A DNA stretch of 60,157 bases, filler included, from Bilabrum cf. latius (GCA_965178125.1; 3 parts of 3 records of this genome joined end to end with filler, not necessarily neighbours in it), one strand, 5' to 3'; counted from the first letter of the whole stretch, positions 1 through 24,083 are shown. The notes: generated from the letters alone by a model not told the origin. Made by a program: numbers and translations.

Positions 1-3000
1 TAGGACCCAGGAGGACGAATAACGACTGCGTCTCGACCAGGTCGGTAGCGCGCACTCGTTGAAGGCGAAGATTGAGCAGTGGCGCACGAGCGCCGAGATC
101 GCCCAAGCGCGCGACCATATAGCATATAGCACAGCAGAGCCGAGATCGCCGGTGGCTTCCCGAAGGCCACCGTTGTGCAGTACGTGACGATCAGCGACGA
201 GGTCTGGACGGAGGCCATGAGCTCGTTGGAAAAGACGACCGGTGGCGCGGATGCCAATCGGCTGATGCCCACCGGTTCCTCAGCCGACGTCGATCCCGCC
301 ACCAGGCAGACGGAGATCATGACAGTCCAGCTCCATCTGGAGGCCTTCAAGCGCGCCACTTCAGAGCGGCTCGTCAAGCATTACGACAGGCTCTTCTGGC
401 GCTTCGGGCATGTCTCCGAGACGATGTACTGGACGGTGACGCACATCGCCGGCAACAAGGCCGGCGACAGTTCGCAGTGGGAGACCGACTGTGACAACAC
501 CTACGCGCCGCCGGGCAAGGACGCCGACTTGTGCTTTCGTGCGCCGCGGGAGTGGTTCCTGTATGGAGACGGGGACCCCGCGGCGCAGGGACCCGGTTGG
601 GACTTCTGGCACGCGGATTGGATGTGCCCGATCCGGCCCTTCCTGGTGGAACGAGGACCGGAAGTGGTGGCAGGAGCCGCGCCTCCTGAGGTATCTCCTC
701 TCGCCGGAGGGCCGCGATGCCAAGCAGAAGATCCTCGACGGCGTGGTCACCAATCACCGGCGCGTAGTGGGCTACTGCCTTTACGTCAACTTCCTCCGGA
801 AGATCGACGAGGGCAAGGACCAGGACAAGATGCTCAAGCAGCTTAAGCGTGGGACACCCGACGACGATCGATTACGTACGACTTTCCGTCCCGCGTCATG
901 TGTGAGTGTGCACAGACGCTGGACTTGAAACCCCGCGCTCTACAACCAGCGATGCAAGCGCTTCAAGAATGGCTTTGAGCAGAACATTTTCAACCCTCAT
1001 GAGGCCAGCGAGGCCGGCCGCATCTACCGCGCCAAGCGGCGCAGGCTCAGCGACTACGGGTACAGCCTTCCGCAGACGGACGGAGCGATGGGCTTCGCCG
1101 CTGACGTGGTCTGTGATCCTCAGGATCCCGAGAGGAGGTTCGGCCAGGAGGTGCGCGAAGCCATGCAGAAGGCCGACTTGGCCATCGCTGCCGCGGAGCA
1201 GCTGTGGAAGCACAGGGATTACAAGGAGCGCCAGGAGAAGGCCCTCAAGCGATATGACGCAGAACTCGGCGCAGCGTATGCCAAGGACGACTTTGCCCTG
1301 TTCGGCAGGGGTGCCTACGCCCAGTTCTACCAAGTCCATACCTCGGAGCTCGTGGGCGAGCTTTCCCAGATCAATGGACAGGACCAAGCGACGGGCTCAT
1401 CAATGATTTCAATGATTGGCACAGCGCTGAGCACGACATGGGTCAATGCGTACAGCAAGGGGGGGGGGGGGGCAACCGACAGACGAGCCACTACTACCTC
1501 CAGACGGCCCAGAAGATGGCGAGAACATGGCCTTCCTTGTCGATTCCGATGGGGCAGAGACGTACCGCAGCTTGATCAATGAGTGCCGCAACAAGGACAC
1601 GCAGCCGGGCCCCGACTTCATGTACGAGGCCAGCGAGAGCGGCGAGTGGAGAGCATTCCCGCCGGCTCAGCAGGGACCGGTTGGGGTCATTGGTCCGCTT
1701 CCCGCTCTGACATACGGCCGGGAGATCGACAAGGACAACAAGAGCTTGAGAATACTCACCGGAATGTTCGGATTTCAGCGTGTCACCGGAATGTTCGGAT
1801 TTCAGCGTGCCGCCGACACCATCTCCGCGATCAATGCACGGCCAGCCAACGGAGGCTTCGTTGCCACCTTGGCCAGTTGACGAAAAGCCAGACGAAGGCG
1901 GTGGGCCGACACTTCGAAGCCAGCGCCATGATCGAGCCGCTCGCCAAGAACATGTTCCAGTTCTGGATCGACGGCCGCAGGAAGAAACGGCGCCTGGCCA
2001 ATGCGTTTGTCGACTTCATCCCGCAGAAGCCGCCGCAGGTGGAGAATCTCGACACTTGGGTCAATGAATGCAGGTGCGCAAAGGGGCCAGTCCGAAACGG
2101 ATCGACTTCCTACTTTGCCATGCTCTCCCAGCACGCCAACCAGTACGAGGCAGGTCCAGCGGTCGGCGAGCTCCGTCACGAATACCAAGAGCAGGAGACC
2201 TTCAAGAGGACGGATGGACGACAGGTGGTGCTCCGACCGCCAGCGCAACGGAGGGTTCCAGACCGTCAGCTGCGTTCGGACCCCATCGTGTCGCGAGCGC
2301 CAACGTGGCCGGCCATCCGGGCATCGCATATCACCCTTCGTGACGACGACGAGAGCTCGGGCAGCGACTGGGAGGACGAGACGACACTGCATCACAAGCC
2401 ATGGCCCACTGCGGAGGGTGCCCGAGGCTTGGCCGAGGGCATCGAATCCTACATTGCCAGCAACATGCAGGCCGTTGTCGACGTGCCAGAGGTGTTCTTT
2501 CAATGGCAGACCGCCTATGACCACGTGCTTCCGTGGCATTTGACCCTCAAGAACAACGCGCCGAAGAAGTATCGCTCCTACTGGTACGTCGAAGACGCGA
2601 CAGGGAAGAAGTCCCTTGTGCGCAGACAGTCGCTCATCTCCATCTACAATCCGACGAGTCAGGCTCCCGCCGACCGGCTCTACGACCCGGACGAGCTCCA
2701 GGGCATCAGCGTCCCAGTGCTTTGGGACAGCCTGTCCTTCATTCAGGCCTACATCCGTCGCCACCGCTTCCTCGAGCGGCGGCTTCAGAAGGCAGTCCCT
2801 GGGTGCAAATGGTTCGGGGGGTGCTACGTCTTCTCGAAGTGGCTCGACGACCATCCGGACATCTCAAAGTGGTACTACTCGTTGAAGGGCAACGGCAAGT
2901 TGACCGACGAGGATGTTGCCGCTCTTGGCGACGTCCACGATACCGAGGCCGCGAAGCAGATCAGCAAGTTCGGGACCGAGTTGTTCCAGGACATCGCGGA

Positions 3001-3292
3001 CAAGGTCGGCGACCGCAGTGCGATGATGACGATTCCGGAGTTCATCTGCCGGATCCACCAGAGCGCACACACGGGTCTGTTTCCGCCGATCATGCATGCG
3101 ATGCTGGGTCGGCATGCGGACTACGTGATGGACCGTGTCCAGAAAGAGATTCCGGCCACGCCTCTGAATTACGACGACGGCGATAAGGACGAGGAGATGA
3201 GCAGTGACAGTCCTCCATCCGGCACAGGGGCCCCTGCGGATACGGTGATGGCGCCGGTGGAGGAAGAGGAAGAGGTCGACTGGGACGTCTAG
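1..3292 (+). pseudogene. Long intronless degenerate ORF of unknown function (about 1,000 aa when joined), possibly an accessory ORF of a retroelement; 5' end lies outside the window
   Basis: Protein-like segments in ORFs 175-846, 491-928, 1088-1582, 1446-1880 and 1583-3292 join end to end through frameshifts and one stop. There is an in-frame 27-bp tandem duplication at 1756-1809 and an acidic C-terminus ending at TAG 3292. No domain was recognised. Confidence 0.5.
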
Positions 3293-4421
3293 GGCGTTCC
3301 AGCGGGAGCTGCGTTCGCAGATCGCAGCTCGAGACAAGTTGTGGCGATGCCCCGGATGGCGCGGATGCCAATTGGCTGATGCCTGTCCGGGGCAGACAAA
3401 GTTCAGTCAATGCAGCGTTTGTGTCAATGGGGCACAGAGATCGGAGGGACTAAGTAGAATTCAGCCATTGCGGTCAGCACATTAGCTCGCAGTCTGCACG
3501 GACCATCTGGCAGGAGCTGAGGCGCCCTGGCAGCACAGAACCCAGGTAACGGCTGAGGCCAACGACAGAGCAAGCAAGACGTGTGCCGCCTGCAGCAGCG
3601 GGATGCGCGACAAAGCCTTTTGGCGCGGATGCCAATCGGCTGATGCCCGCAAGTGCTGCCCGCACCGATCGCCCAGTGTAGAGGCCGACGCGGTGGTCGT
3701 CGGAAGCTGTAGGAGTCACCAGGTGGTTCCTGGTGTGCTCCGGCCTTTTGTCCTTCGCGACACGCCGGTTCGATGTCCGTTCCGGCTATCACTGAAGTAC
3801 AGCTTGTCTCTCGGGTCAATGGGGTGGTCAGCGCAGGCCGTGCGCTTGCGCGCCCAATGCGTTTGCGCCAACTTCGCACAAGTTTTACATGTTCGGGTCA
3901 CACAGGGCTCGAGCATGTCCGGCACGCCGAGCACTGGGGCTCCGGGCCGTACAGCTCGCCCAGGACACACCAGACTCGCAGTGCATCCGTTCATCATGCT
4001 TCTCTGCAGCTACGGCTCTGGCTCAATGCTGCAGCAGGCCACTCACTCTTGACACGTTGTATAGCACACACCCCTTGACTCGTGACCTTCGCTTGCCCTC
4101 TTGCGAAAAGAACCTTGCACGCAGCTGCGCACCAGCAGCCATGGTTCGTCTCCTTAAGCAGTCCATCGGGTTCATTGCGTACTTCTCCTTGGGCTCAAGC
4201 GATATCATGGGCCAGGCGGGTGTCTCTCGACCGGCCGGCGGTACCCCGCGGGCGGGCGACGGAGGGCGGGAGCTGACCACCCCGGACGGTCGCACTGCGA
4301 GGCGGCCGCGCAGAGGGCGAGCTTGGACCGCCCCCGGGCTCAAGGTTGGTTCACAAGTGCTCCGGGTTACGTCAGCGTTCCGCCGGTCCGGCCGAGTTGT
4401 GCCGATACCTGTTGTGATGTC

Positions 4422-6610: not shown

Positions 6611-7687
6611 ATGCCGTCCACCGGACACGAACACACCGTGTTATTGCGGAGCGATGGTCGTGCTGTGGCATGTGGTGGGAATGAGGATGGACAGTGCGAT
6701 CTGCCCGAAGCCGAGGCGGGGGTGAGCTACATCCAGGTGTCCGCCGGGCTCGACCACACCGTGTTATTGCTGAGCGATGGTCGTGCTGTGGCATGTGGTG
6801 GGAATGGGGATGGACAGTGCGATCTGCCCGAAGCCGAGGCGGGGGTGAGCTACATCCAGGTGTCCGCCGGAGGCCGCCACACCGTGTTGTTGCGGAGCGA
6901 TGGTCGTGCTGTGGCATGTGGCCGGAATGTAAGTGGTCAGTGCGATCTGCCCGAAGCCGAGGCGGGGGTGAGCTACATCCAGGTGTCCGCCGGGCCCTTC
7001 CACACCGTGTTGTTGCGGAGCGATGGTCGTGCTGTGGCATGTGGTTGGAATGAGGATGGAAAGTGCAATCTACCCGAAGCCGAGGCGGGGTGAGCTACAT
7101 CCAGGTGTCCGCCGGTAGAAACCACACCGTGTTGTTGCGGAGCGATGGTCGTGCTGTGGCATGTGGTTGGAATGAGGCTGGTCAGTGCAATCTACCCGAA
7201 GCCGAGGCGGGGGGTGAGCTACATCCAGGTGTCCGCCGGTAGAAACCACACCGTGTTGTTGCGGAGCGATGGTCGTGCTGTGGCATGTGGTTTTGGCAGG
7301 GATGGTCGGTGCAATCTACCCGAAGCCGAGGCGGGGTTGAGCTACATCCAGGTGTCCGCCGGAGGCGGCCACACCGTGTTGTTGCGGAGCGATGGTCGTG
7401 CTGTGGCATGTGGTAGGAATTATGATGGGCAGTGTAACTTGCCCATCGCGCCCGACGACCTGCGCTACGTGCCGTGCGCCCCAGCGGCCCGGGGCGACCT
7501 CGTCGTGCAGCTCTTCGCGGACGAGCGCGTGGCGACGTGCAGGTGCCTCCTCACCGGGGAGCGAGTTGGCGAGCTGGACCGTCCAGGACGAGGAGCTCGG
7601 GGAGAGCGTCCTGAGGCGCAGCTCGGGGTCAGTGGGAGCTTGGAAGGATGCGCCTCGGAGGCATCGGAGTTCGGGCTTATCTCATGA
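6611..7687 (+). CDS. RCC1-repeat (beta-propeller) protein exon with seven 41-aa repeats
   Basis: 123-bp units start at 6632, 6755, 6878, 7001, 7123, 7247 and 7370. Each encodes HTVLLRSDGRAVACGxNxxGQCxLP...YIQVSAG, the RCC1 consensus. Compensating -1/+1 indels in G-runs near 7090 and 7212 split the ORF track. Confidence 0.9.
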
Positions 7688-7722: not shown

Positions 7723-8283
7723 CGGGGTAACTCGGCGTTCCGCTGGCCGCGCCGGCCCACAAGGTGGCCGATTTGGGGGCCGATGTTTGGCCGATGTTGG
7801 CTGATTTCGGCCGATGTGGGGCCAATGTTTGGCCGAATTGGGCCCATTTTTGGCCGATCTGGGCCGATTTGGGCCGGATCTTGCCAAACTGTGGCCGATG
7901 GTGGCCAACTTTGGGCCGATTTGGGGCCAGTTGTTGGCCGATGTTGGCCGAGTTTTGCCGATGTTTGCCAAAATTTGGCCGATGTTGGTCGACTTTGAAC
8001 CAATATGGGCCGAGATTTGCTCGATCTGGCCCGAATTTGGCCAAAGATTGGCCGATGTTGGCCAACCTCGGCCACAGTTTGGCCAAACTTGGCCAGCATT
8101 TGGCCGAAGTCAGCCACACTTCGGCCGACATCGCCCTCAAGTAGCCAGAAGTCGGCCCAAACTCCACCCAAATTCCACCGAAACTGGCCAAACTCGGCCC
8201 CACATCGGCCAACTTCGGCCAGAATCGGCCAAACTCGGCCATGGTTTGGGCCGCCCGGGCCAGCGGAACGCCGAGCTACCCCG
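7723..8283. repeat. TTGGCCGA minisatellite bounded by 26-bp inverted repeats (MITE-like)
   Basis: CGGGGTAACTCGGCGTTCCGCTGGCC at 7723 matches the reverse complement of 8258-8283 with one mismatch. The interior units switch orientation. Confidence 0.65.
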
Positions 8284-8977
8284 CGCCGGCCCAGAAGCTC
8301 GCCGATTTGGGGGCCCATTTTTGACCGATGTTGGCTGATTTGGTTGCATTGGGGCGGTCCGTCAAATACTGGGATCGAGGACATCCTGGAAAGTGCCAAA
8401 AAATGCCGGAAAATACTCGCGAGGGCTTCCCGAGAACAGGCTCCCCAGACCCTCCCAAGACCCCTCGAAAAAACAAACGCCCCAAAGCCTCAACCCCCCC
8501 CTTGCGGAGCAGTTTTGGAGGGTTTGGTTGGGTGCCGGCGGGGGGGCAGCTCCGGACCCCCTCTAACAGGGGGTCGTGGGGATTTCCGAGGAAGTCCCGG
8601 GGGGGTCCCCCTCTTACCGCCCTCGGCCAAAATCGCCCAGAATTGGCCAACATCGCCCAGAATTGGCCATGTTTGTCGGGTAGCACGCGAGAGCACAGTA
8701 AGACAGTGTGCATGACCATGCGGGGTGGGGAGATCTTTAAGGTGTACAGATACATTGTGTGTCTCCGAAGCCTTGTTGCTTACACGGACACAGGAGCGCC
8801 TCGAGGCCCAAACGCTGCGCGTTCGCTCACTCACCCGTTACCCCAGTTGGTCACTCACCAATATTCCGGTGCCCGGGATTCCTTGGGCCCAGGGCCGGAC
8901 CATATCGGCGGGATTCTCGCCCCGCATTTTTGGAGGATTTGCGAGAAGCAGCTTATCAGCCGTAAGCTCAGACGACT

Positions 8978-10060
8978 ATGTCGTCCGACGCTTCGAGCGC
9001 TGCTCACAGCACAGACTTTGAGCTTACGGAGACCACAGAGGCACCGGCTATAACCCGTGAGGGCTCCGGTACGGATGAGCAACCGGAGACCGAGAACAGT
9101 CCCGAAACGGAGACGACGAGCGGGACAAGCCAAAGTCTCCAGAACTCCCACCGGGCCAACTCCAGGCGCCGGAGCAGGGAGGCGGGACGAGGAGCAGGGA
9201 AAGGAGGGGGTAAGGCGGGGGGGCGCAGGCCGAGGTCTTCGTCACAGGACCTGCGCTATCCCGGAGCGCGCGCCGCACCACGCGCTCGCGCCCCCGCGAC
9301 GGCGACGGTGACTGCAGCAGTGATCTCGTCACCCCCTTCCCTGAATCCCTTCGGGTACCTGGGTGAGCCGGCCGTGCTGGGAGGGGTCGGGGCAGACAGC
9401 GGTTCGTCCGCAGTGAGCTCCTTCCCCGACCGGCGCGTGTCGGCGACCCCGGGGGGCCCGGTGCCCATTCTTTCCGAGACCGAAATTATTCAGGGCCATG
9501 CGCAGGAAATTACCCCGATTCCGAGTCCAACGGGACAAGATGTCCCGGCTCTTGCCGATATCGAGCACTTCTCTTTGGAGGAGGAGCTCGAGAGGGTCAT
9601 GCACGACACGACCCAGAAGTTGATCGGCGAGCAGCGTGCTCGCGCAGCGTGCTCGCGCGAGGTCCCAACGGAACTCCGCCCCGGGGCAGACAGCGGTTCG
9701 TCCGCAGTGCGCTCCGGTGGCGGGGTTTCCGGCGGGACCGCACGTGTGCGTGTGCACGGTGACGTCGACGGCAGTGATGGGTTCATTCCCGACCCGATTC
9801 CCGACCCGACCCGGTCCCTGAACCCACGGGCAGACAGCGGTTCGTCCGCAGTGCGCTCGTTGGGGGAAGGGCCGGCGACGGCCGGGAATGGCAAGGGAGG
9901 ACCCGGTGCTCATGAAGGAAAGGGGTACGCGCAAATTCCCCCGCGCCCGCACACGCCCGCCGCGAAGAGTATGGCCGGGGCGATGGAAAGGGCCGAATTG
10001 GGGGGTTTCCGCAGGTTCAGCGTCGCCCTGAAATCTTCGGCCCCGCGGATTCGGACGTAA
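8978..10060 (+). CDS. ORF0 upstream of gag, 360 aa, low complexity; may be the N-terminal part of Gag
   Basis: Open frame that carries the element-specific SGSSA/hairpin motif three times. Its TAA overlaps the gag ATG (TAATG, 10058-10062). Confidence 0.55.
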   Translation: MSSDASSAAHSTDFELTETTEAPAITREGSGTDEQPETENSPETETTSGTSQSLQNSHRANSRRRSREAGRGAGKGGGKAGGRRPRSSSQDLRYPGARAAPRARAPATATVTAAVISSPPSLNPFGYLGEPAVLGGVGADSGSSAVSSFPDRRVSATPGGPVPILSETEIIQGHAQEITPIPSPTGQDVPALADIEHFSLEEELERVMHDTTQKLIGEQRARAACSREVPTELRPGADSGSSAVRSGGGVSGGTARVRVHGDVDGSDGFIPDPIPDPTRSLNPRADSGSSAVRSLGEGPATAGNGKGGPGAHEGKGYAQIPPRPHTPAAKSMAGAMERAELGGFRRFSVALKSSAPRIRT

Positions 10061-13000
10061 TGTCTTCGGATGATCGCATCAACTATCCGGGATTCCCGAA
10101 GGGCGCGAATTGGAGCGCCATGGTCGCCGAAAGAGGCGATACTCCGGGGGTTTCGGACGATTCGACTGTCCCAGAATTTTTGGGCACTTCCGATCCGCTT
10201 GATCGTCAGCATGTCGCTCGGAGTCAGGGAGTTGAGTCAGGGGTCGAGGGTGAGCAGGTCGGGCGTGGCAGCGGTTCGTCCGCAGCGATGCATCGGTCCT
10301 TGTCTCGCTCTCGCAAGGGAATCGGAAAGGTTTTCGTCCCTGTCTTACCTCTGACAAATCATTCCGGGAGTCGGCGGCCCAGTCCGGCTCCCTCCCATGA
10401 CTCCGCGATGAATGGCGCCCATGTCGACACAGGGTCCGCGAGTGTGATCGACGGAATCCCTAAACGAACTAGGGTAGGCTCGGAAGCGTCGGGCCCCGGA
10501 GACGACGATATGCCGTCGGTGCCTGGGGACCGGTTCGAGCCCATGTTTGGGCTGCCGGGGCGTGCTGGGAATACGCTTCCCTGGAATGGGGAGCGCCAGT
10601 GGCTGGAGATGCAGGAACAGGTCTCGAAGATGGCGCATGAGATAGAAGAATTGAAGACCATGTGTCGATCGGCTCAACAGGAGTCGGCCGCCCGTGGTGA
10701 CTTGGTAGCTTCTCTGCGCCAGGAAGGATTGGAGTTGAAGGAGGAGGTAAGGAGTCAGGAATTTAGGGTGGAACAAGCGAGGCTTACGCATGTGAGCGAG
10801 GCCAACGAGGCGCGCACCCTCTACCTCCGAGCGGCGGATGAGGCCTCGGAACGACTCCGGAGCGTGGAAGCCCGGGAGAGCTCCCGCGTCGGAATGATCG
10901 AGTCCGAGGCGGCCGTCCGGTTGGAGGCGGTTGAGGAAGAGGTTAAGAAGTACTTCACCGTGTTCAGTGAGGAGGAATTGGAGGCCCGAAACGCGTCGCT
11001 CCAGCTCCGCACCGATTTGGTCAATGCGGAGGCGACGCGGGATCGCTATGAGCGAGTCGTCCGTGAGACGACCCGCAGCGCCCGCGCCATGGCGGTCCGA
11101 TTTGCCGAACTGCAATTCCAGACGAACGCGACATCATCGGCTGGGCATGGGCCTCGCGAGGAGGAGGAGCGGCGGAAGTTGGAACGGCGCCTCGCCGAAG
11201 TCTCTGGGACGCTGGAGTCTGAGGTCGAGGCGGCAAGGAGGCACGACCATGAGGCCTCATCGCTGCGACGCCGTCTGACGGAAGCCCAGCAAGCCCTTCT
11301 CGTGGCTCAGGATCGCGCGACGGAGAGTGATGCCCGAAGGGCCGAGTGCGTGCCCGAAAGAATGGGAAACGCTTCGGCTCAGCGGGAGAACTCGATGCTT
11401 CGACATGAAATTGATGAGATGAAGCACGAGGTCGAGCATTATCGGGTGGGTTGTAACGCCCATTGGCAACGACGCCAATCACTGCTCGAGGGCGTCGAGG
11501 CTGCGTATGAGCAGCGGATCAAGACGCTCGAGATCTCCGAGAAGCGCGAAAGGGAGAAGGTGGCCACCGTGGAGGCCCAGGCCGAACGCTCCCTCGGTTC
11601 CGGGGGTAGCGGTCAGATCAATGCGATCGAACAAACTCGTGCGTTCATGCTGGAAGCGAAGTTGAAGGAGGTGACGACTAAGTTGTTGAAGGCCGACCAA
11701 GATAACGAACGATTGAAGGTGGAGTACGCCAAGGTCTGCGACGACCTGAAGGTTTCCACGCGGAAGCTGAAGGACTCGTCGTTGGAGTTACGGTCAGGAC
11801 CTCCTATGTTGCCCACGTTACAGACGGCCACGACGACACTGCCGATCCCGGCCGTGACATCTGCACCTGTGGCGAAGTTCAGTATCGCCACCCCGCAAAA
11901 CGATCGGAGTTTGCGGGATGGGTTGCGGCAGGAAGCTGGCGGCAGTTCGGGGCCGACGTCCTTTGTCTTCGGGCATCAGGACCCTCAGCCTCCTCCCCAG
12001 CCATCGGGAAGCGCTGGTCCTGGCAACGGCGACAGTTCGTCTGCTGATGCCGGGTTTCCGGTCGCCTACGACCGAGGGGGTGCACAGGGCCCTCCCGGGG
12101 GCGATCCCGATGGAGGCGGAGGAGGAGGGGGCGATGACCCGAACGAGGACGAGAGTGACACGTACGTGGACGAGGATGGTGAGGTCTGGACTCGCGTTCG
12201 CCGGCGCCGGAACCGTCGGAACGGAGGAGGCGAACCCCCGGGGGACGATCCTCCGGGCGACGGTGGAGACGGGGGAAACCCGGACGGGGATCCGCCGCCG
12301 AGGCGCGAGGATACGGGACGGGAGCGGCGAAGGAGAAGCCACAGCCGTTCGTCTCGGAGTCCCAACCGGCTTAAGGAGCAGAACAAGGTGGAGTTGCCCG
12401 GATTCCCGCAGGTTGTCACGCTCAGCAAGTATAAGGCCGATCTCCTTGACGCGGTTCTGAATTGCGCCCAGGACAAGTCTCTTGGCGTCGTGCTGCCGTG
12501 GATCATGAAGGTTGGTGAGAAGGGCGTGAAGTTCGAGGACCTGCAGGAGCCCGGTGCTACCTTCCAAACGCTCGACCGAAAGCTGGCCATTTCGCTGTCT
12601 AAGACTCTTCCTCAGGAGTTTGGCCGCATGGTCGAGGTCAAGCGTCAGAGGGCGCTGCGGGAGCATAAGCTGCTGGCGGGGCGGCAGATCCTGTGGGAGA
12701 TCTACCGGCATTTGGCGACCTCCGCCAACCAAGAGAACCTCTACAGCGCTTCCGACTTGATGTCCATCCGTTGGTTTGGCGACTCCCACAAGCAAGCATT
12801 CATGACTATGTGGGAGGACCGGATGTCGAAGACTAAGGGCAATGTCGCCGTGTGGGTCAAGGTCGAAGTCCTTGAGAAATGCGTCAAGGAATCGACGGAC
12901 CTTCGATTTCAGTGGATGCAGTATGAAGACAAGCATCGTGATGAGCGGAACGACGACAACGCCCTGGAGAGGTATGACCTCTTGATCGACATGATCCAGC

Positions 13001-13625
13001 GCCAAGTCATCAAGGAACGGAAGGAGGTCAATTTGGAAAAGATGCAGAGCGCTGACAAAAGGTTCAAGGAGCAGTTCATTAAGACTCCCGCGCCGAAGAA
13101 GGCCCCTGCCGCACCTGCCCCACATGGGAAGGGGAAGGATAAGGGAGGAGGGGGGAACGGAAAGGGACCTCCAAAGGGTCCTGGACCGGCTCCTCAGCAC
13201 CCAGCCCCTTCAAACCCTAACCCCTCTTCTGGGAAGCCCAAAGGGGGTAAGGGCAAGAAGGGCGACGGCAAGGGAAAAGGAAAGAAGGGACACTTCCGTA
13301 CGGAAGGTACGAAGCGGCTCTGCGTCAACTTCTTGTTCAACACGTGCCGGTGGGGAGGGCAATGCCCCTACCTGCGCGACCGGAAGATGTATGACACTCT
13401 TCCTGAAGAGAACAAGAAGGCGTGCATGATCAGCTGGTAGCGTCGCGTTCGCAGTCGCCAGCGCCGAGCCAGGCAAACAGCCGGGCCAGTTCTCCTGCCA
13501 CTCCGGGGAAGGGCAAAGGCAAAGCCGGCCCAAAGAGGAGGGGCAAGAAGAAGGCCGGAAACAGCCGCTCGACGTCCCCCGCTCCTAACACCCCTCGGGC
13601 CAAGACGGGGGGTCCCAGTTCTTGA
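10060..13625 (+). CDS. gag: Gag-like polyprotein: coiled coil, Gly/Asp-rich linker, capsid-like region, GKGK-rich tail and CCCH-like finger
   Basis: 1126-aa ORF upstream of pol. It has C-x7-C-x5-C-x3-R (His replaced) at ~13321-13377. The Gag-like tail (SRSQSPAP...GKGKGK) continues in another frame to TGA 13625, which implies a frameshift near 13425. Confidence 0.75.
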
Positions 13626-16600
13626 CGGTTTACCGCGCCCGCGGTTCAGGTCGGATCGGGCGAGCAGCGGTTCGTCCGCAGCGTGCTCGATCCGCTGGGG
13701 CGGGCGCCTGGGGGACGCCTTAGTTCCCCGGCCATTAGGACCCAGAGGGGAAGGTCTCCCTCCCCGCTGCGTAAGGCGGGTCGGCCCTATGACCCCGTTG
13801 AGGATGTGGAGAGCGGGATGGCGACTATCCTTGGGGGTAACGGGGGGGAGGGGGGAGTCTCGGTCTGGGTCGGGCAGCGGTTCGTCCGCAGCGAGATCCG
13901 GGTCGGGCTCGCCCGCCCGTCGGCCCAGTGTGGGTCGATCTCCCTCGAGGAGTCGCCGTACGCGATTGGATTTCGGGTATATTGAAGTGTTGTACCATGA
14001 AATGCCCGGCGAAGTCGCGAATAAGGAAGAGCAGACCGGATTGCGGAGTTCGGCACGAGCCCGAAGGAAGACGATTCCGTGGCGCGGGTTTCCTACCTCG
14101 CTGGAGGAGCACTTCTCTTCCCTCCTACAGGAAGCCCTCGCCAGGGTTGAGGCCCATGCTATGGCCCTAGAGGTGGGACGCAGTGGGGCGTGCGCCGTAG
14201 ATCTTCCAGCGGGGCCGTACACCGCGGTCTGGGACAATCAGGGAGGAGTTTACCTTGTGTATTACGCATCCGGATCGGTCATCCCGAAGGGCGAACCCAA
14301 GTACGTGAGCCGACAGGATGGCCTACAGTTGCTTCGGGAGCGCTGGAGCGCCTTCCTTCACGTCGGGGAGGTGCCCGGACCCACCGAGAGGGTCGAGAGC
14401 GGCTCAACATTGGGGTGGTTTGGAGCCGAGCGGTGGGACAGTGGAAGACCGAGTGTTCCGGGTGTGGTGTCCGAAGGCAGCGATCCGGGGGAGGCTCAAG
14501 TGAGTCGCTGGCTTGTCGACTCGGGGTGTGGATCCGACTTGGTCGACGCAAAGAGCGTTGCGCATTTGGGTGCCCAGGTCGAAGAGCTCACCGAGAAGCC
14601 AAGGTTGCTGACGGCGAATGGGATCACGGAAGTGTCCCATGACATCCCCTTGTGGATTGGTCCCATGGGGGTGGTTCGAAGGCCGTTGGTGATGAACAAT
14701 TCCCCGGATGTGCTGTCCATGGGCAAGATTTGTGTTGAGGAGGGGTATGACCTGCATTGGCCGGGCGGAAGCCTTCGGCCATATTTCGTCCTTCCGGGAG
14801 GCGAGAAGCGTATTTACATGACGGTGGAAGGAAACATCCCGTTCATGGACGCTTCCGCCGTCCCCGTCGACGTCCGCCACGAAGTCGAGGGTCGTGTGGA
14901 GCATGACGCGGCCCCGGCATTGTCTCCGGGCGGCGGCGATGAGTCGGCCGACGATGGAGGTGTTGGGCACCGGCCAGTCGAGCTGGAAGGGGAAGGGCAT
15001 ATGGAGGTCGCTCCCCCTCACGAGGTAGTGCCTAGTGATGATCCCGACGACATTGTGCTGGGTCCCGAGGATGATGGTCGGAGAGACCTGAGGAAGGAGG
15101 CCAAGAGTGTGGAGCATTTGCTCTTTCACTGGCCTAAGAACCCGCATTGTCGCGTGTGTCGGGAGGCGCTGGCGCTCAGGAAGCAGAATCGACGGAGAAA
15201 GGATGTCCCGGATCGATACCGGGAGTTTGGCGATATGATCACCATGGATCATGTCGTCCAGAAGGACCTATCACAACGAGGTCTTGAAGGGGTGCGCGAC
15301 TTGTTGGTCGTCTACGACTTGGGCACGGGGTGGCTTGGTGCATATCCCGTGCAGTCTAAGGCGGCCGATCGCGTTGTTCGATCTCTGTCTCGCTTCTTGG
15401 GGAACCAGAAGGCAAAGAACTTCCATTCGGACCGTGCCCCGGAGTTGTTGGCGGCCGTGAAGACGCTTCCCGGTTCCCCTCCGGAGACCCACAGGGCGAG
15501 TGTCCCGGGCGTTCATCAGACCAACTCCATCGCCGAGACAAGGGTCAAGCAGGTCATTCATGGCACTCGCACTAGCTTGTTGGGTGCGGGCTTGCCCACT
15601 TGCTGGTGGCCCTACGCGGCGAAGTGTTACGCTTTTCAGCACAACTGGGCGGAGTTCGGGGGAGTCGCCCCGGCCACCGCCAGGGGGCTTGGTCAGTGGA
15701 AGGGGCAATTAGTTCCCTTCGGAGCGCTCGTGAGCGCCATGCCGAGTGCGATCCACAAGGATCGCGTCCGAAAGTTTGAGGCGCCCATGCAGCCGGCCGT
15801 CTTCCTCGGCTATGTCGTGCAGGACGGCGGAAAATGGTCTGGAGAATACCTTTGGGCGTTCCTCGACGACTTTGCGGACAAGTCGTTTTATCGACGCGCT
15901 CGGTGGTCCGAGTGTGGGGTCACGATTCACTCCGGACGCGAAATGAGGTTCGAAGGCGACAGGCCCGTAGAGTTCCCGTGCCGTGAGAAATTCCTCAGGG
16001 ATAATGAAACCCTCGAGGGGATCGAGCGGTGCCTTGAACGGGAGCGCGAGGCCGAGGCCCTCGAAGATGCTCGACCGGAGATCGGCGATGTCGGAGAGTC
16101 CCAAGGTGGGGACGGGTCATCGGTGAGAGCTCTCCCTCCTGGTCAGGAGGATCAGGGCGCCGGTGATGAAATCCCAATGGGGCCTGATGACGTCGATGAA
16201 GAAGAACCCTTCCCGGAGGATGTCGAGGAGGAGCTCCATCGATTGGAACGGGAAGTCGAAGATGAACGGTTCACGTTGGAGTTTATACCGACGGGGCGCA
16301 GTGCGCGGGGGGCGCACACCGACCAGTTCGGGAACGAGATTCAGAAGACTCAGCGCCCGCCATATTTCTCCCCCGAGGAGTGGACTCCGATGGATTCGGC
16401 CAAGCGTAGGAAGTTCGTTGAGAAGTCTCGGTTGGAGATGGAAGACTATCGGGCGAAGCAGGAGAGAATAACCGCGTTGCAGGCGATCATCGACGGCTAT
16501 TATGCCCGTCTCCGTCGCCGGATCCAAGGCGGTGGTCCGCCTCAAATTCCTGTTGATCCGGCGGCTGTGGGATCGCTTCCGGGTGACAAGGGACAGTTTG

Positions 16601-19600
16601 GGACAGGCAGCGGTTCATCCGCAGCGCGTTCCGAGCAGAGTCTCCTATGTCCGGGGCGGCCGGGGACAGGCAGCGGTTCGTCCGCAGCGGGTTCCCGACA
16701 GGCTCCGGCAGCGGAGGCACCCTTTTCCCCGCCATCGTGTGATATTGCGATGCCCGTTTTCTCCTCTGATGGATTCCCGCATCGGGATAAGATTGCCCAC
16801 TCTTGGGCCCCGATGTATGCGCTTACCGCCCGGGATGTCTCGCACGCCGAGCGCCGTACATCGGAGGCAGCCCAGAAGGCCCTTAAGCTAGAGTGGGATC
16901 GCCTCCGATCGTGCGGTGACCGCGGGTGTTGGGACGAGGCCAACCCGCGGGAAATGGCGGACGTGAAGGCCGAGAAGCGACGAAATAAGACCACCGCCCA
17001 TTTCGGTAGGGTTTTCGACATCTGTGTGGAAAAGAACTTCCACCTGCCGGAAGGTACTCTGGGACGGAAATTCAAAGGGAGGGCCGTGTACCAGGGGAAC
17101 AACGTGAAGGACCAGGATGGAAATTGGGCTATTTTTCAGGAGCTGGCATCGTGTCCTTCGACGATGGAAGCATCGAAGGTGGCGGATTTCTATTCGCTGC
17201 TTGACGGGCACGAGGGACAGCAGGCGGACGCGGTTATGGCCTATACTCAGGCCGACTTTTCCGGACCAGAGACATGGGTGGAAATTCCGCGTGAGCAATG
17301 GCCCGATTCCTGGTACCGGAACGGAAAGCCCTTGTATCATCAGCCCGTTTGTCGATTGCTCAAGGCGCTATATGGACATCCCGATTCCGGGGGGCTTTGG
17401 GAGCGCAAATGCGACGCACACTTGAAGAAGATCGGCTTCAGGGAGGTGCCTTCGTGGCAGAGTGTCTATTTCCATGATGCCCTGGAGATTCTTCTCGCCG
17501 TCTACGTGGACGACTTGAAGATGGCCGGTCCCAAGGAAGCCCTCGGGAAATGTTGGGATATGATCCGTGGCGACGAGGCGGAGAACGGCCTGCGCATAGA
17601 GCCCCCGGAACCCTTTGGGTTGTTTCTGGGGTGCTCTCATGAGGTCGGGTCGGTGGAACTGGGAGCTGGAAAGCCCTCGGTGAAGACCATGACCTACAAT
17701 GTGGAGGCCTACCTTCGAAAGAGCATTGACAAGTATCTGGGGGTCCTCCCGGCGGGCTCCGCCCTAAAGAAGGCCCCCGCTCCCTTTTTGGCTGCGACCG
17801 GTGAGGCGTTGGATGTTGCCCGCCCGTCGCGCCCGGGTGGCGATCCTAAGAGGTGCCCGTGGTGTCGTGGGATTTTCGATCATTCAGAATTCGGCCAGTT
17901 GGCCGACCCGAAGAAGGTCCCCGCGCCGACCCCGGCGGAGAGGCCTCCGCCGCGGGGGGTGCTAGCGGCCAAGGCGGCCAGCGTCCTCATGCAGATTCTG
18001 TATGCGGCTCGCTATGCCCGCTTCGACCTCCTTTGTGCGGTGTCGAAGCTGGCCCAACGGATTGCTACTTGAGATGAGGAATGCGATCGGGGAATTTATC
18101 GGCTGATGTGTTACATACAGTCGACGTTGAGTTGGCGGCAGATGGGGTATGTTGGGGACGGCTTGTCCGACGTCGTCTTCGACCTGTACGCCGATGCGGA
18201 CTTTGCCGGCGACCCGTCGAAGAAGTCGACCTCGGGCATGCATGTTGCCATTTCGGGTCCCCGCACATACTTCCCATTGAATGGTCAGAGCAAGAGGCAG
18301 GATTGCGTCAGTCACTCCACTCCGGAAGCGGAAATCGTCGCGGCGGATCTCGCCTTGAGGCGAGAGGGGTTGCCTATGTTGGACTTATGGGATGTCCTGT
18401 GTCCTGGGCATGCTCCACTTCGCTTTCATGAGGATAACGAGGCGATGATCCGGGTGTGTCGTTCGGGACGCAATCCCACGATGCGACATCTGTTGCGCAC
18501 CCATGCCGTGGCGGTTGCCTCGTTGCATGAGACATTCTCCCGGTCGGATATCACTTTGTTGTACGTACAGTCCGACCGGCAGGCTGCCGACATCTACACC
18601 AAGGCCTTTGACAATGGAGACAAATGGAGGGCAGTGTGCACGCTCAGTGGGGTGTACGATGTCTCCTCCTTTACAGTCGCGGGGAACATTCATTTCTGGG
18701 CGAATCCGCCCCCGACAAAGGCAGCCCTACGGGCAGAGGCCGATGAGGCCGCCGTCCCGGCGCCCAGGGGAAGCAGCGGTTTGTCCGCAGCGTTCTATGG
18801 GTCGTCGGGCCCCGTCGCCCCGCCCCCGCACGGACGGGGGGATTTTGGGGGTCCGGGGGGTTCGGGGGGTGTTTCGCGCGTCATCGTTGAGATCTGCTGC
18901 TCTGCGACTTCCACCATAGGGGCTGTTGCCCCTCCTTCGTGTCGCGTATTCCGCATCACGGTGGTGGATGACTTCCGGTGCGCGAAAGGCAGGTGCAAGG
19001 TAAGCCGAATTCTCCGGCGCTTCTCGCACCACCCGATCTTGATTTGGGTGTCTTTTCCGTGCACGGGCGGGTCTCCATGGCAGAGGCAGAATTGGAGAAA
19101 AGGGAACCCCGATACGCAAGAGAAGATTAGGAGTCACTGGGAAGATCTCAGACGACTATGGGAGTCCTTCTGCTCGGTTGTGTTGCCCTGGGTGCGATCT
19201 GGGAAGGTCGACCTGGCATGGGAGTGGCCGGTGGCCTGCTCCTACTGGCACTGGACCGGCGAGGGACGATGTCCGGACGGGACACACCAGGTGGCCATTC
19301 GCGACACGTTGCAGTCGCTCAACATGCGCTCCATGGTGGTCCATGGATGCGAGGTGGGTCTTGTGGCCCACGCCGGCCCGCGACGCGGGGAGCATGTTAG
19401 GAAATTATGGCGTGTGGATTCAACCGTCCGTTCGCTCTTGGACGGGATAGGAAAGCCCCTTAGGGACGACAGGTCCGTTCCCATGGTGGGGGGTTTCATC
19501 ATGTCCGATGCGAAGGGTCCATTACCAAAGCATCGGAGATTTATCCCGATTCCCTTGCGAGAGCGATTCATAAGGGGTGGTCAAGGTCGTGTCAGAAGGT

Positions 19601-19649
19601 AAGAGGGAAGGTAAGGATGAGCGCATGTGCGATGCCGTTTCTTGTTTAG
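13624..19649 (+). CDS. pol: Copia Pol (protease, integrase, RT, RNase H) with a C-terminal C5 DNA-methyltransferase domain; one premature stop and one frameshift
   Basis: Protease WLVDSG (~14509). Integrase HLLFHWPKNPHCRVC, ITMDH, FHSDRAPE, SIAE. RT LKALYGHPDSG and YVDD (17503). RNase H YADADFAGD, STPEAE, EDNEA, ADIYTK. TGA at 18070 sits at a likely Trp. The DNMT part starts at ~18877 with VEICCS, SFPCTGGS, WEWP and RKLWRV. After a G-run frameshift at ~19490 it reads HVRCEGSITKASEIYPDSLARAI to TAG 19649. The frame is open upstream of the Met at 13789. Confidence 0.92.
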
Positions 19650-19856
19650 CACTCGAAGGGACGCGCCGATCGGCAGCCCTTAGCGCTCGCGCATCCGTGC
19701 GCGCCGACCCTTCGCCTTCGGGCGACCCCGCTCGACCCTAGGGTCATCCCCCGACGCTTCGGCGTCCTAAGGCCGTGCTCCCGGACTATTCCGCGGGGCC
19801 AGGCTGAGGAGAAGGAGGAGAGGAGCCGAAGGAGTCCGCAGATTGGAGTGGAACAG

Positions 19857-20310
19857 ATGGCGGGGCAGGATATTCTGTCCACGCTTGTGCCGCACACCTG
19901 GCGGCGCTTCTACGGCTACGAGGTCCCGATCCCGTTGAAGGAATTACGGGACAATAAAGGGGGTGCTTCCTCGCTTCCCGTATCAGGAGCGTTGGAGGAA
20001 GTATGTGGAGTGGAAGTATGCCTACGCGAAGGCCCTCGTGCAGAACGTTGGGGACCTCCACCGAGAGATGTACGTCCCTTGAGTGCGCCCTACGCGAAGG
20101 CGAAGCGGTGCTGGATCTACTTCCAAATGCAGTTTCACCCCGACAAGTCGGCACCCGGGAAGGGGGACCAGTCGAGCCCGCCCGGGATTTGGTTGAAGCT
20201 GCAGGAGTACCACAAGCGCTTTGAGGATCCGCACGAGTATTTCTTCCTTGTCCTAGTCTTGTTGCACAAGCGGCGAGGCCAGGATGGACTCGGAGATCTC
20301 GACCCCTATT
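19857..20310 (+). CDS. Extra ORF downstream of pol with a J-domain-like HPDK motif; truncated by the linker
   Basis: AKAKRCWIYFQMQFHPDK...WLKLQEYHKRFEDP resembles DnaJ helix II-HPD-helix III. HPD starts at 20136. Confidence 0.5.
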
Positions 20311-20410: not shown

Positions 20411-20439
20411 CGCCGGTGCCCGCTCATCTCTTCAAGAGA

Positions 20440-20496
20440 CGGGAAACATTGGAATAGAAGAGGGGAACTTCCCCTCTTCTATTCCAATATTTCCCG
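20440..20496. repeat. 57-bp near-perfect palindrome
   Basis: CGGGAAACATTGGAATAGAAGAGGGGAA-C-TTCCCCTCTTCTATTCCAATATTTCCCG, with one mismatch. Confidence 0.9.
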
Positions 20497-20700
20497 GATA
20501 CATCGGTCACAGCTTGGAGTCATTGCGGATGTTCTTTCGCTCGGCGTTGGGTGCACGTCTGGTTTCCATGGACGCATTCAGTCGAGATTCACGGCTGTTT
20601 ATTTCGGCATACGCTGCAACAGATCCCCAAAGCCTTTTTTGGCACAAGCGCAGCACCCCGGGGAGCAAGGCCTTGGCGCCATCGCAGGGCAGCACGCGGC

Positions 20701-23700
20701 ATGAGGGGGCAAAGCGAAGACACGTGGCATCGGCTAGGCCGCAAGTGGCAGAGGTGCTTTCTGATTAGCACTGAGCGTCCGGAGCTAGGCAGTTGGATAG
20801 AAAGATGTCGGCTGCCGTTCCGTCTCGGTTGCATGGTCTGCCGCCACGCCGGCCTCCCCGGAAAATGGGCGCGGTGTGGGGTCGGCAGCGCTGATTACGA
20901 TCGCCAGCAAGGTTCGGTCCAGAAAGACAGCTTCGCCAAGCACGCACAGACGGAGTCGCACAAAAAGGCCGTGCAGGCATTGCTCGGGGAGAAGATATCG
21001 GCGAGAAGCGCCCCAAGCCCGGCGAACTTCTTAGACGTTCTGAAGGCTGTGCGCAGCGGTAACGCCTCTCGGCAAGCTGGCGTCCCCGGTGTGGGCGGCC
21101 GCAAGAAAGTGAAAGCCATGGTATACTGCCTAGCGGAAGCGCTGCGCGAGCGGGACCGGGCGATGTTGCGGCAAGCGGCCAGCATCACCCTCATGCAAGA
21201 CGCCCGAAAGGCACGGCTGCTAGTGCGGTTCAAGGCTTGCACCGCGGACCTGCGGCAGCACCGCGGGATCTTAGGCCAAGCGCAGTTGCGGAACATGGGG
21301 GCGACCGAGCTTACCGAGGCACGTGCCGGGGTGGGCGACAGGGGGCGGGGGGCGGGCAAGGCGCACGGGGGCCGGTACGGGCGGGACCGAGGCACAAGCC
21401 GGGGAGGGCGACAGGCGGGGCGGGGGGTGAACGGGCGGGCGGGCCGTACGGGCTGGGCGCGGGCAACGATGCGCCGAGGCGACGCTCGGCATCATCAAGG
21501 ATGCTTGTACGAAGTACCATGGCGTCCCCATGCGCCGGAGCTCGACGCCGGCCCCGAAAGTCGACGACAAGTTGCTACTCCACGTGGCAGACAAGATCGA
21601 GCACTTCGCCGCGGACGCCGCGAGCGACGAGCAGCTTGCAGGGAACCTCCTCCGCGCCCCCGAAGACCCGACCGTCAGGGAGAGTTGGGCGTTCTTGAGC
21701 AGCTTAAAAGTTGTGTCCCGCGACAGGGGCGCACGCGGCGAGGCGGTTGACCAAAAGGCCGTGGCAAGCTGACAAGTTCCTGAACGAGTGCATGCAGACC
21801 GTGATCCTGAGCAAGGGCAGCATCACGAGCATGATCGGCAATTCCACTGTCTTCCAAGGGTGGTTCAACAAGAGCGTTGAGAGGTCGCACACGTGCGTCA
21901 CCGACAACAAGCGCATCAAAGATCTTTCCTTCGGAAAGCACCGCTTTGACTCTTGCGCTCGCCCCACCGGTCGTTTCGTGCTGTTCTTCGAAGCAGTCGT
22001 AATGACGGCCGTGCAGATCGCGGATACCAGGCGCTATCTCAAGGAAGGCAAGCAGGCTTTGCGCTTTCTGGAGTGGGTCGACGAGGAGCGGCTCCTCCAG
22101 ATTGCCATGTTGGCAGACGGTGCGGACGAGGCACTCATGCATGTTCGACTGCTCGACAAAGAAGATGTCGACAACTCGCTCTTGCAAGAGGAGTGCAACC
22201 GCTTCCTCGAGCGCATCACCGCCTTGTTCGGACCGCAAGCAGAGTGCTGGCAGCTGGGTTACACCTTCCACATGCTGCGGCAATTGCAGCGCCCAGTGGT
22301 GGTGATGGTCGGCGGCGTTCCGAAAACCATCGGCGGGCCGACCACGGTGGATCCCGTGATCAAGCGCCGGTGCATCGACAGGACCTATGTTGATTGCATG
22401 CTTGATTGCATTTGGGCGGGTGGGCGGGCGGGAGGCCGGGCGGGCAAGACTGGCGGACGGGCGGGAAGGCCAGGGCGGGCGGGCAAGGCCGGTGGACGGG
22501 TCGGGCGGGAAGGCCGGGGCGGGCGTGCGGCCATCAACCCAGTCATCAACCCAGGATGCACTGTTGGTGCAAGCTCGTGAAGCTCGCCGTCGCGGCGGAA
22601 TTTCCGTCGTTCGATGTCTTGACTGCCTTCAGCTGCTTGAACGTTCAGGGGGATGCGGCTCGGCCAGCGCCGCAAGCGTCGGAGAGGAACCAACTTAGAC
22701 TGCTCGCCCACGCCTTGGGCTTGGACTACGCGGAGTTGCGCGAGGGGTACGAGGTTGTCAAGTCGGTCGCCATTATCAAACACCAGCGCAAGCAGCAACT
22801 CACCAACTTCGAAGCTTGGCGGGACGCCCTGGCCCACATCAAGAAGGCCAAGAAGTTCGACGGCCCCCTGCAGTCGGTGAATGTCGTGCTCGTGAGATTC
22901 GGTGCGTGGACAGCGTCCACCTCAGGCGTCGAGCACACCTTCTCCATGGTGCAGTGGTGCTTGGAGGGGCGGAAGGCTTGGATGTCTGCGGCGCTCGAGA
23001 ACAACGAGTTGAAAGTCTTGTGCGATCGCACGCCGGGGGACGACGACGAGGTCTTTCGCGCCGCCCAACGCATCTGGGTGGAAGTCGGCTATGGCCGGGC
23101 GCGCGGGGAACAGAAGGAGCGGAGGTTGGATGCGGGGTTGAAGCGCAAATGTGCAATCCAGGGCCGGTCGGAGGCCAAGTGGATCAAGAAGCGGCGCGCC
23201 GCTGTGGACACCTTGATGAAAGACGTCGCGGTCCGCCAAGATGCAGGGAAACACGTGGCGGAGCTTGGCGAGGGCGGCCGCGGGTGGACCGCATGCCACT
23301 CGAAGGAGAGCACCTTTCAGAAGGCCAAGGAGATGTCATACCTCGTGGACGCAGTGCTGGAAGGGTCGGTCAACCCGAAGTCGCTCGACCGCGACATGCT
23401 CGAGGTCATAGTGGAGGAGGTCGCCCGGAGACAAAATGCCGCGAAGCAAGCCGCTGCGGAGCGGCGCCGGAAACGTGTGCCCTTCCAAGACCCCAAGCGG
23501 GCGACGCTGGAGGGCGCCAAGGTTTTCATCGACCCCGAGGTGCAAATCACGGAGAAGCAACTCCGCGAATCACGCGTTGCGCACGGCTGGCAACGGGTGA
23601 CGGATCGCAGTCAAGCCACGATGTTCGTGGTGACGACGCCCGATGGCATGGGGCAGCGCACAGCCTGGTCCGCTGCGTTGCGCGGCGCGGTCGTGGCCAC

Positions 23701-24083
23701 AACCGAGTACTTGACCAGCAATGGCCAAGTCGGGGCCGCAGTCGCTTTCAAGCCGTCCGCTCGCATGCAAGTTGCCGTGCATTTCACCGGTGACTTTTGC
23801 GAGGCGCACCCGACCGTGTATAGCTTGTGCCGTGCGATCTGCACCCAGCCCACGGCACGCTGGCGGTGGCTGGAACACACCCAAGCCGTGCGTGACACTG
23901 CCGAGAAATGCCGCCGGTTAGGCAGGGGACGGCGAGCTCCTTGTGTTCGCGACCAAGGCCGAGCTCAAAGAGCGGGCTGAGGTCTTCGCCGACGTTAAGT
24001 ACATGCTGACCGTCGGCACCGCGCTTGTGTGGCTGAGCCGGATCGATAGGAGCCGGTGCGTCGCCGGTCTCTGCGGGTTTTGA
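20701..24083 (+). CDS. hAT-like DDE transposase with an N-terminal C2H2 (TTF/BED-like) zinc finger and a C-terminal BRCT-like domain; two introns
   Basis: Motifs are CMVC...HAQTESH, SITLMQD (D1), AADAASD (D2), RDxAH at the CxxH position, HRFDS at the RW.S position, and STSGVEHTFS (E, hAT dimerisation-like). Introns are 21319-21478 (GC-AG) and 22382-22554 (GA-AG). G-run frameshifts lie near 21728 and 23926. The protein ends ...VAGLCGF-TGA. Confidence 0.75.

What the first reader, a model, noticed from the sequence alone, without database searches (positions are those of the whole stretch)
9391..18795. Nine copies of a covarying RNA hairpin dispersed through the copia element
Seen: CAGCGGTTCGTCCGCAG occurs at 9397, 9691, 9835, 10269, 13665, 13875, 16608, 16671 and 18774, all on the sense strand and in inter-domain linkers. 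It folds as RC-A-GCGG-(5-nt loop)-CCGC-A-GY with an A.A mismatch. The outer pair covaries: A-T in the first three copies, G-C in the other six. The only core substitutions are in the loop (TTCAT, TTTGT). Most copies have a different but still complementary outer stem, such as CGAGCA/TGCTCG and GGGGAC/GTTCCC. Inference: selection acts on RNA structure rather than on the SGSSA peptide, for example as multiple dispersed Gag-binding or packaging signals.
Basis: partly seen in the sequence, partly recalled or inferred. Interest (0 to 1): 0.7.

Follow-up and report, generated by a model that had tools for sequence, protein, structure and literature searches.

The report
Family-specific RNA hairpins in copia retrotransposon
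A giant jumping gene, probably from a dinoflagellate, carries the same small RNA hairpin cap nine times along its coding strand, and neighbouring jumping-gene families each carry a different cap of their own, which looks like a family-specific RNA tag that one of the element's proteins reads; its function is untested.

Summary
The nine copies are real (0.36 expected by chance). Each caps its own 50-65 nt stem-loop: RC-A-GCGG-UYYRU-CCGC-A-GY plus a purine-G mismatch. The stems pair with their own flanks better than any of 100,000 re-pairings and favour the sense strand. An 87%-identical relative on contig C83 has 14 more copies. Selection is on structure, not on the peptide: at the one orthologous hairpin, third codon positions are conserved while amino acids change, and 6 of 6 listed stem variants in public runs keep pairing. 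The element is a large copia (capsid-fold Gag, CCCH finger in relatives, PR-IN-RT-RH). New here: other copia families in the same assembly carry different dispersed hairpins, and at orthologous sites the cap has changed in concert between subfamilies. Copy 13665 also caps a stem-loop just after the gag UGA-CGG stop, a likely readthrough signal. Best reading: a family-specific RNA signal read by Gag for packaging or self-recognition (about 0.5). Export or stability roles remain open. No expression or binding data.

The parts
9373..9437 (+). Hairpin A1 (core 9397-9413, A-U outer pair)
   Evidence: z -4.5; 5 of 5 listed stem variants keep pairing
9669..9731 (+). Hairpin A2 (core 9691-9707)
   Evidence: z -4.8; 1 of 1 listed stem variant keeps pairing
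9811..9876 (+). Hairpin A3 (core 9835-9851)
   Evidence: z -4.0
10248..10310 (+). Hairpin A4 (core 10269-10285)
   Evidence: z -3.5
13623..13706 (+). Gag stop in a UGA-CGG context, followed by a long stem-loop capped by hairpin A5 (core 13665-13681); candidate readthrough signal
   Evidence: same context, similar peptide after the stop (RFTAPAV / RLAAPAV) and a long stem-loop in the C77 relative, there capped by that family's own hairpin
13851..13914 (+). Hairpin A6 (core 13875-13891), upstream of the protease region
   Evidence: z -3.9
16589..16646 (+). Hairpin A7 (core 16608-16624, loop UUCAU), integrase-RT linker
16648..16710 (+). Hairpin A8 (core 16671-16687), integrase-RT linker
18750..18814 (+). 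Hairpin A9 (core 18774-18790, loop UUUGU), linker after RNase H; orthologous to C83:24495
8966..13625 (+). Gag region: low-complexity and coiled-coil N-terminal part, capsid domain (about 12358-13095), CCCH-type finger region, basic tail; split over several frames in this copy
13966..18720 (+). Pol in copia order (protease, HHCC-integrase, RT, RNase H; protease, HHCC and RNase H assigned by recalled motifs), with an in-frame TGA at 18070-18072
   Evidence: (RVT_2 E 4e-6, below cut-off)
18865..19602 (+). C-terminal domain, possibly cytosine-methyltransferase-like (lead only)
   Evidence: nearest named cluster PF00145, score 0.90, 179 features; no PDB hit; no Pfam hit
227..3680 (+). Three hairpins of a different copia family (family B; caps at 249, 3363, 3627)

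Best explanation
The hairpins are a cis-acting tag on the element's full-length plus-strand RNA. Shown: a fixed 19-nt cap with A-A and purine-G mismatches sits on a locally evolved, G-U-rich stem. It is repeated about once per kb in poorly conserved linkers, kept by selection on pairing, and specific to one copia family. Inferred: a sequence-fixed cap on a sequence-free stem is a protein-binding site. The likeliest reader is the element's own Gag (CCCH finger plus basic tail), which would use many dispersed contacts to pick out, compact and package a 20-26 kb RNA. Because co-resident families have different caps that change in concert, the tag would also let each Gag tell its own family's RNA from that of its neighbours. 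Copies probably spread as about 35-nt in-frame cassettes, after which the lower stems adapt locally.
For: Own-flank pairing beats all 100,000 re-pairings of the nine window copies. Over 23 copies, 89% of cells pair against 34-53% for slid partners. Sense minus antisense energy is -9.4 against -1.9 for 332 strong non-motif windows, p 4e-5, while DNA energies are nearly symmetric. G-U flank pairs: 66 sense, 18 antisense. Orthologous A9: 1 of 18 third positions changed against 89 of 279 outside (p 0.011), and 5 of 35 first/second positions against 20 of 561. 6 of 6 listed stem variants keep pairing, chance about 0.03. Family B is read in two frames of one ORF, and 41 of 57 distinct stem changes keep pairing, 13 of them on both sides. 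Family C has 46 covarying hairpins against 0-1 in shuffles. Caps changed in concert. The Gag model's ten best fold matches are all retroelement capsids, and 12 of 73 aligned relatives match zf_CCCH_4.
Against: No binding, particle or expression data. Frame bias of 22 of 23. The five inner pairs never vary, so they carry no covariation evidence. 16 of 57 family-B stem changes break a pair. Only one orthologous pair was available for motif A, and against the linker alone the contrast is smaller (1 of 18 against 12 of 49). Only 40 of 261 variant rows were shown, and depth over the cores is swamped by paralogous hairpins. In C83 only 4 of 14 copies pair best with their own flank, because the flanks there are alike. 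Flank likeness does not fall significantly with distance. The capsid fold Z of 7.2 is middling on its own.
Confidence: 0.5

Rival explanations
1. Same RNA tag, different reader: a host or element-encoded cargo protein uses it for nuclear export, for protection from trans-splicing, decay or silencing, or for localisation of the full-length RNA (RRE/CTE/PTE-like).
For: All structural evidence applies equally. The element carries large 3' cargo ORFs, one with a Tpt1/KptA domain (E 8e-14). Purine-purine mismatches recall the Rev site (recalled). The MLV export element lies in coding sequence as multiple stem-loops (PMC4588558 abstract).
Against: Caps differ between co-resident families in what appears to be one host, which fits a host reader poorly but not an element-encoded one. 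The known export elements are clustered, not spread over the whole RNA.
Confidence: 0.25
2. Translational role: the stems pause ribosomes between protein domains or stimulate recoding.
For: Copy 13665 caps a stem-loop starting about 11 nt after a conserved UGA-CGG, the arrangement reported for VEEV and CTFV readthrough (PMC13517186 passages). All copies lie in linkers.
Against: Pausing needs stability, not an invariant cap with mismatches. The other eight copies have no stop or shift signal identified. The C77 readthrough stem has a different cap.
Confidence: 0.08
3. DNA-level binding sites for an element-encoded anti-silencing or methylating protein, like the VANC targets of VANDAL transposons.
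For: Family-specific short repeats that vary between related elements (PMC5735166 abstract). Possible methyltransferase-like domain in the element (lead).
Against: A duplex site needs no copy-specific 15-25 bp outer stem. G-U-rich pairing favours one strand. Family C conserves pairing but not sequence.
Confidence: 0.07
4. Neutral by-product of RT template switching or fold-back, spreading a cassette and perfecting inverted repeats.
For: Neighbouring copies share flanks (9397/9691/9835; 16608/16671; many C83 copies 85-100%).
Against: Fold-back would erase mismatches and G-U pairs rather than keep them. Divergence is lower in family-B stems (0.083) and cores (0.035) than in flanks (0.190). Third positions are conserved at A9.
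Confidence: 0.06
5. Selection on the peptide SGSSA as a linker or modification motif.
For: 22 of 23 copies lie in that frame of the longest ORF.
Against: Identical codons in 19 of 23 copies. Loop changes give S to L and S to P. Amino-acid changes are tolerated at A9. 17 of 18 related proteins have no match to the peptide patterns in any frame and one has a single match.
Confidence: 0.04

Closest known systems
Multiple dispersed packaging signals of ssRNA viruses and HBV (PMC6281560, abstract and listing seen)
   Same: Many sequence-structure motifs with a shared recognition feature, spread along a genomic RNA that must be packaged by its own coat protein.
   Different: Here in an LTR retrotransposon. 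The caps are near-invariant 19-mers on long stems rather than degenerate loops. Binding is untested.
Coronavirus repetitive structural motifs (gUUYCGUc, agc/guAAu; PMC8206606, abstract seen)
   Same: Lineage-specific repeated hairpins placed in inter-domain regions of a polyprotein ORF on a very long RNA; proposed packaging role. The UUCGU loop resembles UUYCGU.
   Different: Those have 2-8 copies in clusters and a hexaloop. Here there is a pentaloop, and 9 copies in about 11 kb plus 14 in about 10 kb. The loop likeness is not evidence of kinship.
Ty1/copia LTR retrotransposons of dinoflagellates (PMC5776459 and PMC5890265, passages seen)
   Same: Copia domain order, RVT_2-type RT, copia/Ty1-like capsid fold; one protein relative is named from Symbiodinium natans.
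   Different: Much longer (the C77 relative spans about 25 kb), CCCH-type Gag finger, 3' cargo ORFs. The main texts of those two papers do not contain 'hairpin' or 'stem'. PMC5890265 says Symbiodinium copia lack a DNMT domain.
Type II stop-codon readthrough signal, UGA-CGG plus extended stem-loop (VEEV, CTFV; PMC13517186, passages seen)
   Same: UGA CGG followed 7-11 nt later by a long stem-loop, in both the window and the C77 element.
   Different: At a retrotransposon gag-pol junction and capped by the family hairpin. It explains one copy of nine; readthrough not measured.
VANC/VANDAL anti-silencing targets (PMC5735166, abstract seen)
   Same: Family-specific repeated motifs in a transposon, co-evolving with an element protein.
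   Different: Those are DNA sites, often in tandem repeats (non-coding, by section titles). These are single-strand structures in coding linkers.

Membership tests
Ty1/copia LTR retrotransposon | Copia-type RT with PR-IN-RT-RH order | tested here: met
   RVT_2 E 4e-6 (below curated cut-off) at pol aa 1302-1363; 9 of 18 relatives carry PF07727; order read from motifs (motif names recalled)
Ty1/copia LTR retrotransposon | Gag with retroelement capsid fold | tested here: met
   Model pLDDT 94; ten best VIA-align rows are all capsids, led by Ty1 CA-CTD and Drosophila copia at Z 7.2, rmsd 3.5 over 87 and 7.5 over 175 residues; Foldseek gave nothing at E<=0.001
Ty1/copia LTR retrotransposon | Two LTRs, PBS, target-site duplication | tested here: inconclusive
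   The contig ends at 20310; 8601-9380 has no second copy in the contigs held
Dispersed packaging signals | Multiple copies of a shared sequence-structure motif along the genomic strand | tested here: met
Dispersed packaging signals | Specific binding by the cognate capsid/nucleocapsid protein and effect on packaging | not testable with these tools
   needs binding and particle data
Known Rfam RNA family | Match at gathering score | tested here: not met
   12 weak matches in 8000-20310, none at gathering score and none on a hairpin copy
Type II readthrough signal | UGA-CGG plus 3' extended stem-loop | tested here: met
   in 2 of 2 related elements where the junction was held
Type II readthrough signal | Measured readthrough product | not testable with these tools
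   needs a reporter or proteomics
VANC-type DNA anti-silencing target | Duplex DNA motif with no need for single-strand pairing | tested here: not met
   strand-biased, G-U-rich, copy-specific stems
C5 cytosine methyltransferase cargo | Significant DNA_methylase match or fold | tested here: inconclusive
   Atlas 0.90 to a PF00145 cluster; none in Pfam or PDB sequence searches; not folded

The most novel reading that the evidence does not exclude
Giant copia elements of this host lineage label their whole RNA with a family-specific hairpin 'barcode' that co-evolves with a CCCH-finger Gag. Dozens of dispersed copies change in concert when families split, giving each family a self/non-self packaging code that limits cross-packaging and parasitism among co-resident retrotransposons.
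Probability: 0.4. Interest if true: 0.85.

Novelty: new variant of a known kind. Interest (0 to 1): 0.72.

Why it matters
How LTR retrotransposons select their own RNA is usually put down to a 5' signal or to cis-preference (own knowledge). A genome-long, family-specific, concertedly evolving hairpin code would bring packaging-signal-mediated assembly to retrotransposons. It makes RNA self-recognition directly testable, because natural cognate and non-cognate Gag-hairpin pairs sit in one assembly. It also gives a marker for classifying very divergent giant copia families, and a candidate gag-pol readthrough signal.

Tried and rejected
Rfam: no family. Viral contigs (9 loci) and metagenome contigs (64 loci): every locus has a single match, and none of the 73 gave a tblastn hit to the element's proteins, so I treated them as chance. 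A loop-free pattern gave 14 scattered single matches on large contigs besides the 23 family copies; these were not folded and I treated them as chance. Sequencing runs: 8 holders in 5 studies, no RNA holder listed, which says nothing about expression. Joints between hairpins are most likely paralogous hairpins mis-laid, not shown deletions. The test for decay of flank likeness with distance was not significant (p 0.24 and 0.13). DVNP search: nothing rang, controls included, so it is uninformative. A genome-wide search with the covariance model was not available, so degenerate copies outside the 258 kb searched are not excluded. Foldseek on the Gag model gave no significant hit. Direct homology of motif A to the family C cap (both 19 nt, both in the same linkers) is not shown: the model did not match family C, and the DNA alignment there is poor except at the gag stop. 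K-turn, SECIS and IRE likenesses were considered from memory and not pursued. Literature: searches listed no paper describing such hairpins in LTR elements. The library lacks most subscription papers, and I read no supplements (those of PMC5776459 hold Symbiodinium copia sequences that may bear on this).

Full report
Observation. The 17-mer occurs nine times at the stated places, all on the + strand, against 0.36 expected. The window is three contigs joined by N; 1-20310 is contig C90. Each copy folds as a cap RC-A-GCGG-(UYYRU)-CCGC-A-GY on a longer stem of its own, z -2.4 to -4.8. The A-U variant of the outer pair is confined to three neighbours with 75-80% identical flanks and is best counted as one event.

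The element. A 246-aa part of ORF 9916-13440 folds with pLDDT 94. Its ten best fold matches are retroelement capsids, led by Ty1 and Drosophila copia at Z 7.2; that Z is middling alone, but the list is uniform. Of 73 aligned relatives, 12 match zf_CCCH_4, and a 75%-identical sister protein has finger and basic tail in one frame. Pol follows in copia order with a weak RVT_2 match. This copy is broken in places. An 87%-identical relative on C83 continues about 8 kb beyond the window's contig end, with a 1918-aa ORF holding a Tpt1/KptA domain; two protein relatives fuse Tpt1 and RVT_2. The host is inferred to be a dinoflagellate, from a relative named Symbiodinium natans and from general make-up. 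Two 10-kb samples of the megabase contigs look like another, gene-dense organism, so the small contigs may be a co-assembled species; that is inference.

Specificity. The exact core has 19 matches in 48.6 Mb, all on C90 and C83 and all on the element's sense strand. With a free loop there are 23 family copies and 14 scattered singles. A covariance model over 258 kb returned the 23 training copies and one weak match. The 73 matches in viral and metagenome collections are singles with no element protein nearby. Contigs from all 4 runs laid cover 9340-10330, with depth spikes at the four hairpins.

Structure, not peptide. (a) The true pairing of 5' and 3' flanks among the nine window copies is more stable than any of 100,000 permutations. 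(b) Over 23 copies, 89% of cells pair, 8 of 14 pairs change on both sides, and slid controls give 34-53%. The structure was drawn from these sequences and the copies are related, so this control is lenient; five inner pairs never vary. (c) The sense strand is favoured by 9.4 kcal/mol, against 1.9 for 332 equally strong non-motif windows, and DNA energies are nearly symmetric. G-U flank pairs number 66 against 18. (d) At the single orthologous pair (18774, C83:24495), 1 of 18 third positions changed against 89 of 279 outside (p 0.011; 12 of 49 in the linker alone), while 5 of 35 first and second positions changed against 20 of 561; every change at a paired site keeps the pair. (e) Of the 40 best-supported variants shown (of 261), six fall in predicted stems and all six keep pairing, chance about 0.03. 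Core positions are uninformative there. Against: 22 of 23 copies are in the SGSSA frame of the longest ORF, though 13665 is probably read as QRFVRS. I read the bias as peptide tolerance or in-frame spread.

Neighbouring families have other caps. Family B is also copia-like (RVT_2, rve and CCHC matches, all below cut-off). It carries a GGAUGCC...GGCUGAA cap 9-13 times per element on C51 (two elements), C54, C83 and C98, and three times in this window (249, 3363, 3627). It is read in two frames of one 2701-aa ORF. Of 57 distinct changes at paired sites, 28 keep the pair on one side, 13 are compensatory and 16 break it; divergence is 0.083 in stems, 0.035 in cores and 0.190 in flanks. One cap position is G in 46 of 47 copies of one subfamily and A in 13 of 13 of the other. 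Family C (C77, 68% identical to the window over RT) has 46 hairpins of 8 bp plus a triloop, with freely covarying stems, against 0-1 in shuffles. Its 68%-identical neighbour has C-CAA-G in 5 of 6 copies, including three aligned sites where the first element has U-YGG-A. A distant copia on C88 has GAGA-capped stems: about half of 19 pattern matches fold so, by eye. So the architecture is general and the cap is a family trait that changes in concert.

One copy has a second role. Gag's basic tail ends at TCT-TGA-CGG (13620-13628). The C77 element has the same context, a similar peptide after the stop, and a long stem-loop starting 7-11 nt downstream. That stem is capped by motif A here and by a family-C hairpin there. 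UGA-CGG plus an extended stem-loop drives readthrough in VEEV and CTFV (PMC13517186, passages). Readthrough here is inferred.

Mechanism. Shown: selected, sense-strand, family-specific stem-loops at about one per kb. Inferred: a fixed cap on a free stem is a protein site; family specificity points to an element-encoded reader; Gag with its CCCH finger and basic tail is the obvious one. Many dispersed contacts would select and compact a 20-26 kb RNA. I give this 0.5, another reader for export or protection 0.25, translation 0.08, DNA sites 0.07, neutral by-product 0.06 and peptide 0.04.

Comparison and novelty. It works like the dispersed packaging signals of RNA viruses (PMC6281560, abstract) and the lineage-specific repetitive structural motifs in coronavirus inter-domain regions (PMC8206606, abstract); membership needs binding data. 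It matches no Rfam family. Nine literature searches listed no description in LTR elements. Term look-ups found no 'hairpin' in the main texts of PMC5890265, PMC5776459 or 10.1101/2023.11.30.569493. Two earlier notes of this scan report GNRA-capped dispersed hairpins in other dinoflagellate-type copia. They are not independent support, but they show the architecture is not unique to this window. What this locus adds is a non-GNRA, near-invariant cap, several different caps side by side in one assembly, their concerted change, and the link to the gag stop. Verdict: real, selected at the RNA level, function inferred; new variant of a known kind; interest 0.72.

Noticed in passing
window 13620-13710: Conserved UGA-CGG plus long stem-loop at the end of gag, also in C77: candidate readthrough signal for pol.
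   Followed up: partly
window 1-3680: 3' part of a family-B copia element (86% identical to C98) with three hairpins of a different cap.
   Followed up: partly
window 18865-19602: Domain after RNase H with a weak lead to cytosine methyltransferases; PMC5890265 says Symbiodinium copia lack one.
   Followed up: partly
L012:271-6024 (G000:C83, minus strand): 1918-aa cargo ORF of the same family with a Tpt1/KptA domain (E 8e-14); P0010 and P0013 fuse Tpt1 with RVT_2.
   Followed up: partly
L088:6830-9997 (G000:C77): Cargo ORF of the family-C element with a weak cpYpsA SLOG-family match (E 2e-5, below cut-off).
   Followed up: no
L090 (G000:C88:1-6000): Distant copia with GAGA-capped hairpins.
   Followed up: partly
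L105, L106 (G000:C1, C12) versus the small contigs: Megabase contigs differ in composition and gene density from the small repeat-rich contigs; the assembly may hold two organisms.
   Followed up: partly
window 6616-7434: 6.7 copies of a 123-nt coding repeat that looks like RCC1-type repeats (recalled, not tested).
   Followed up: no
window 4421-5448 and 7723-8283: Imperfect inverted repeats and GGCCGATGTT-type satellites flanking the elements; may be MITE-like.
   Followed up: no
window 24446-25416: Higher-order 169-nt satellite built on the palindrome GGTAGCGCTACC.
   Followed up: no
window 20411-24080: Long ORFs that look like a DNA-transposon transposase region, not examined.
   Followed up: no
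window 37348-38386: 11-nt satellite with abrupt strand inversions.
   Followed up: no
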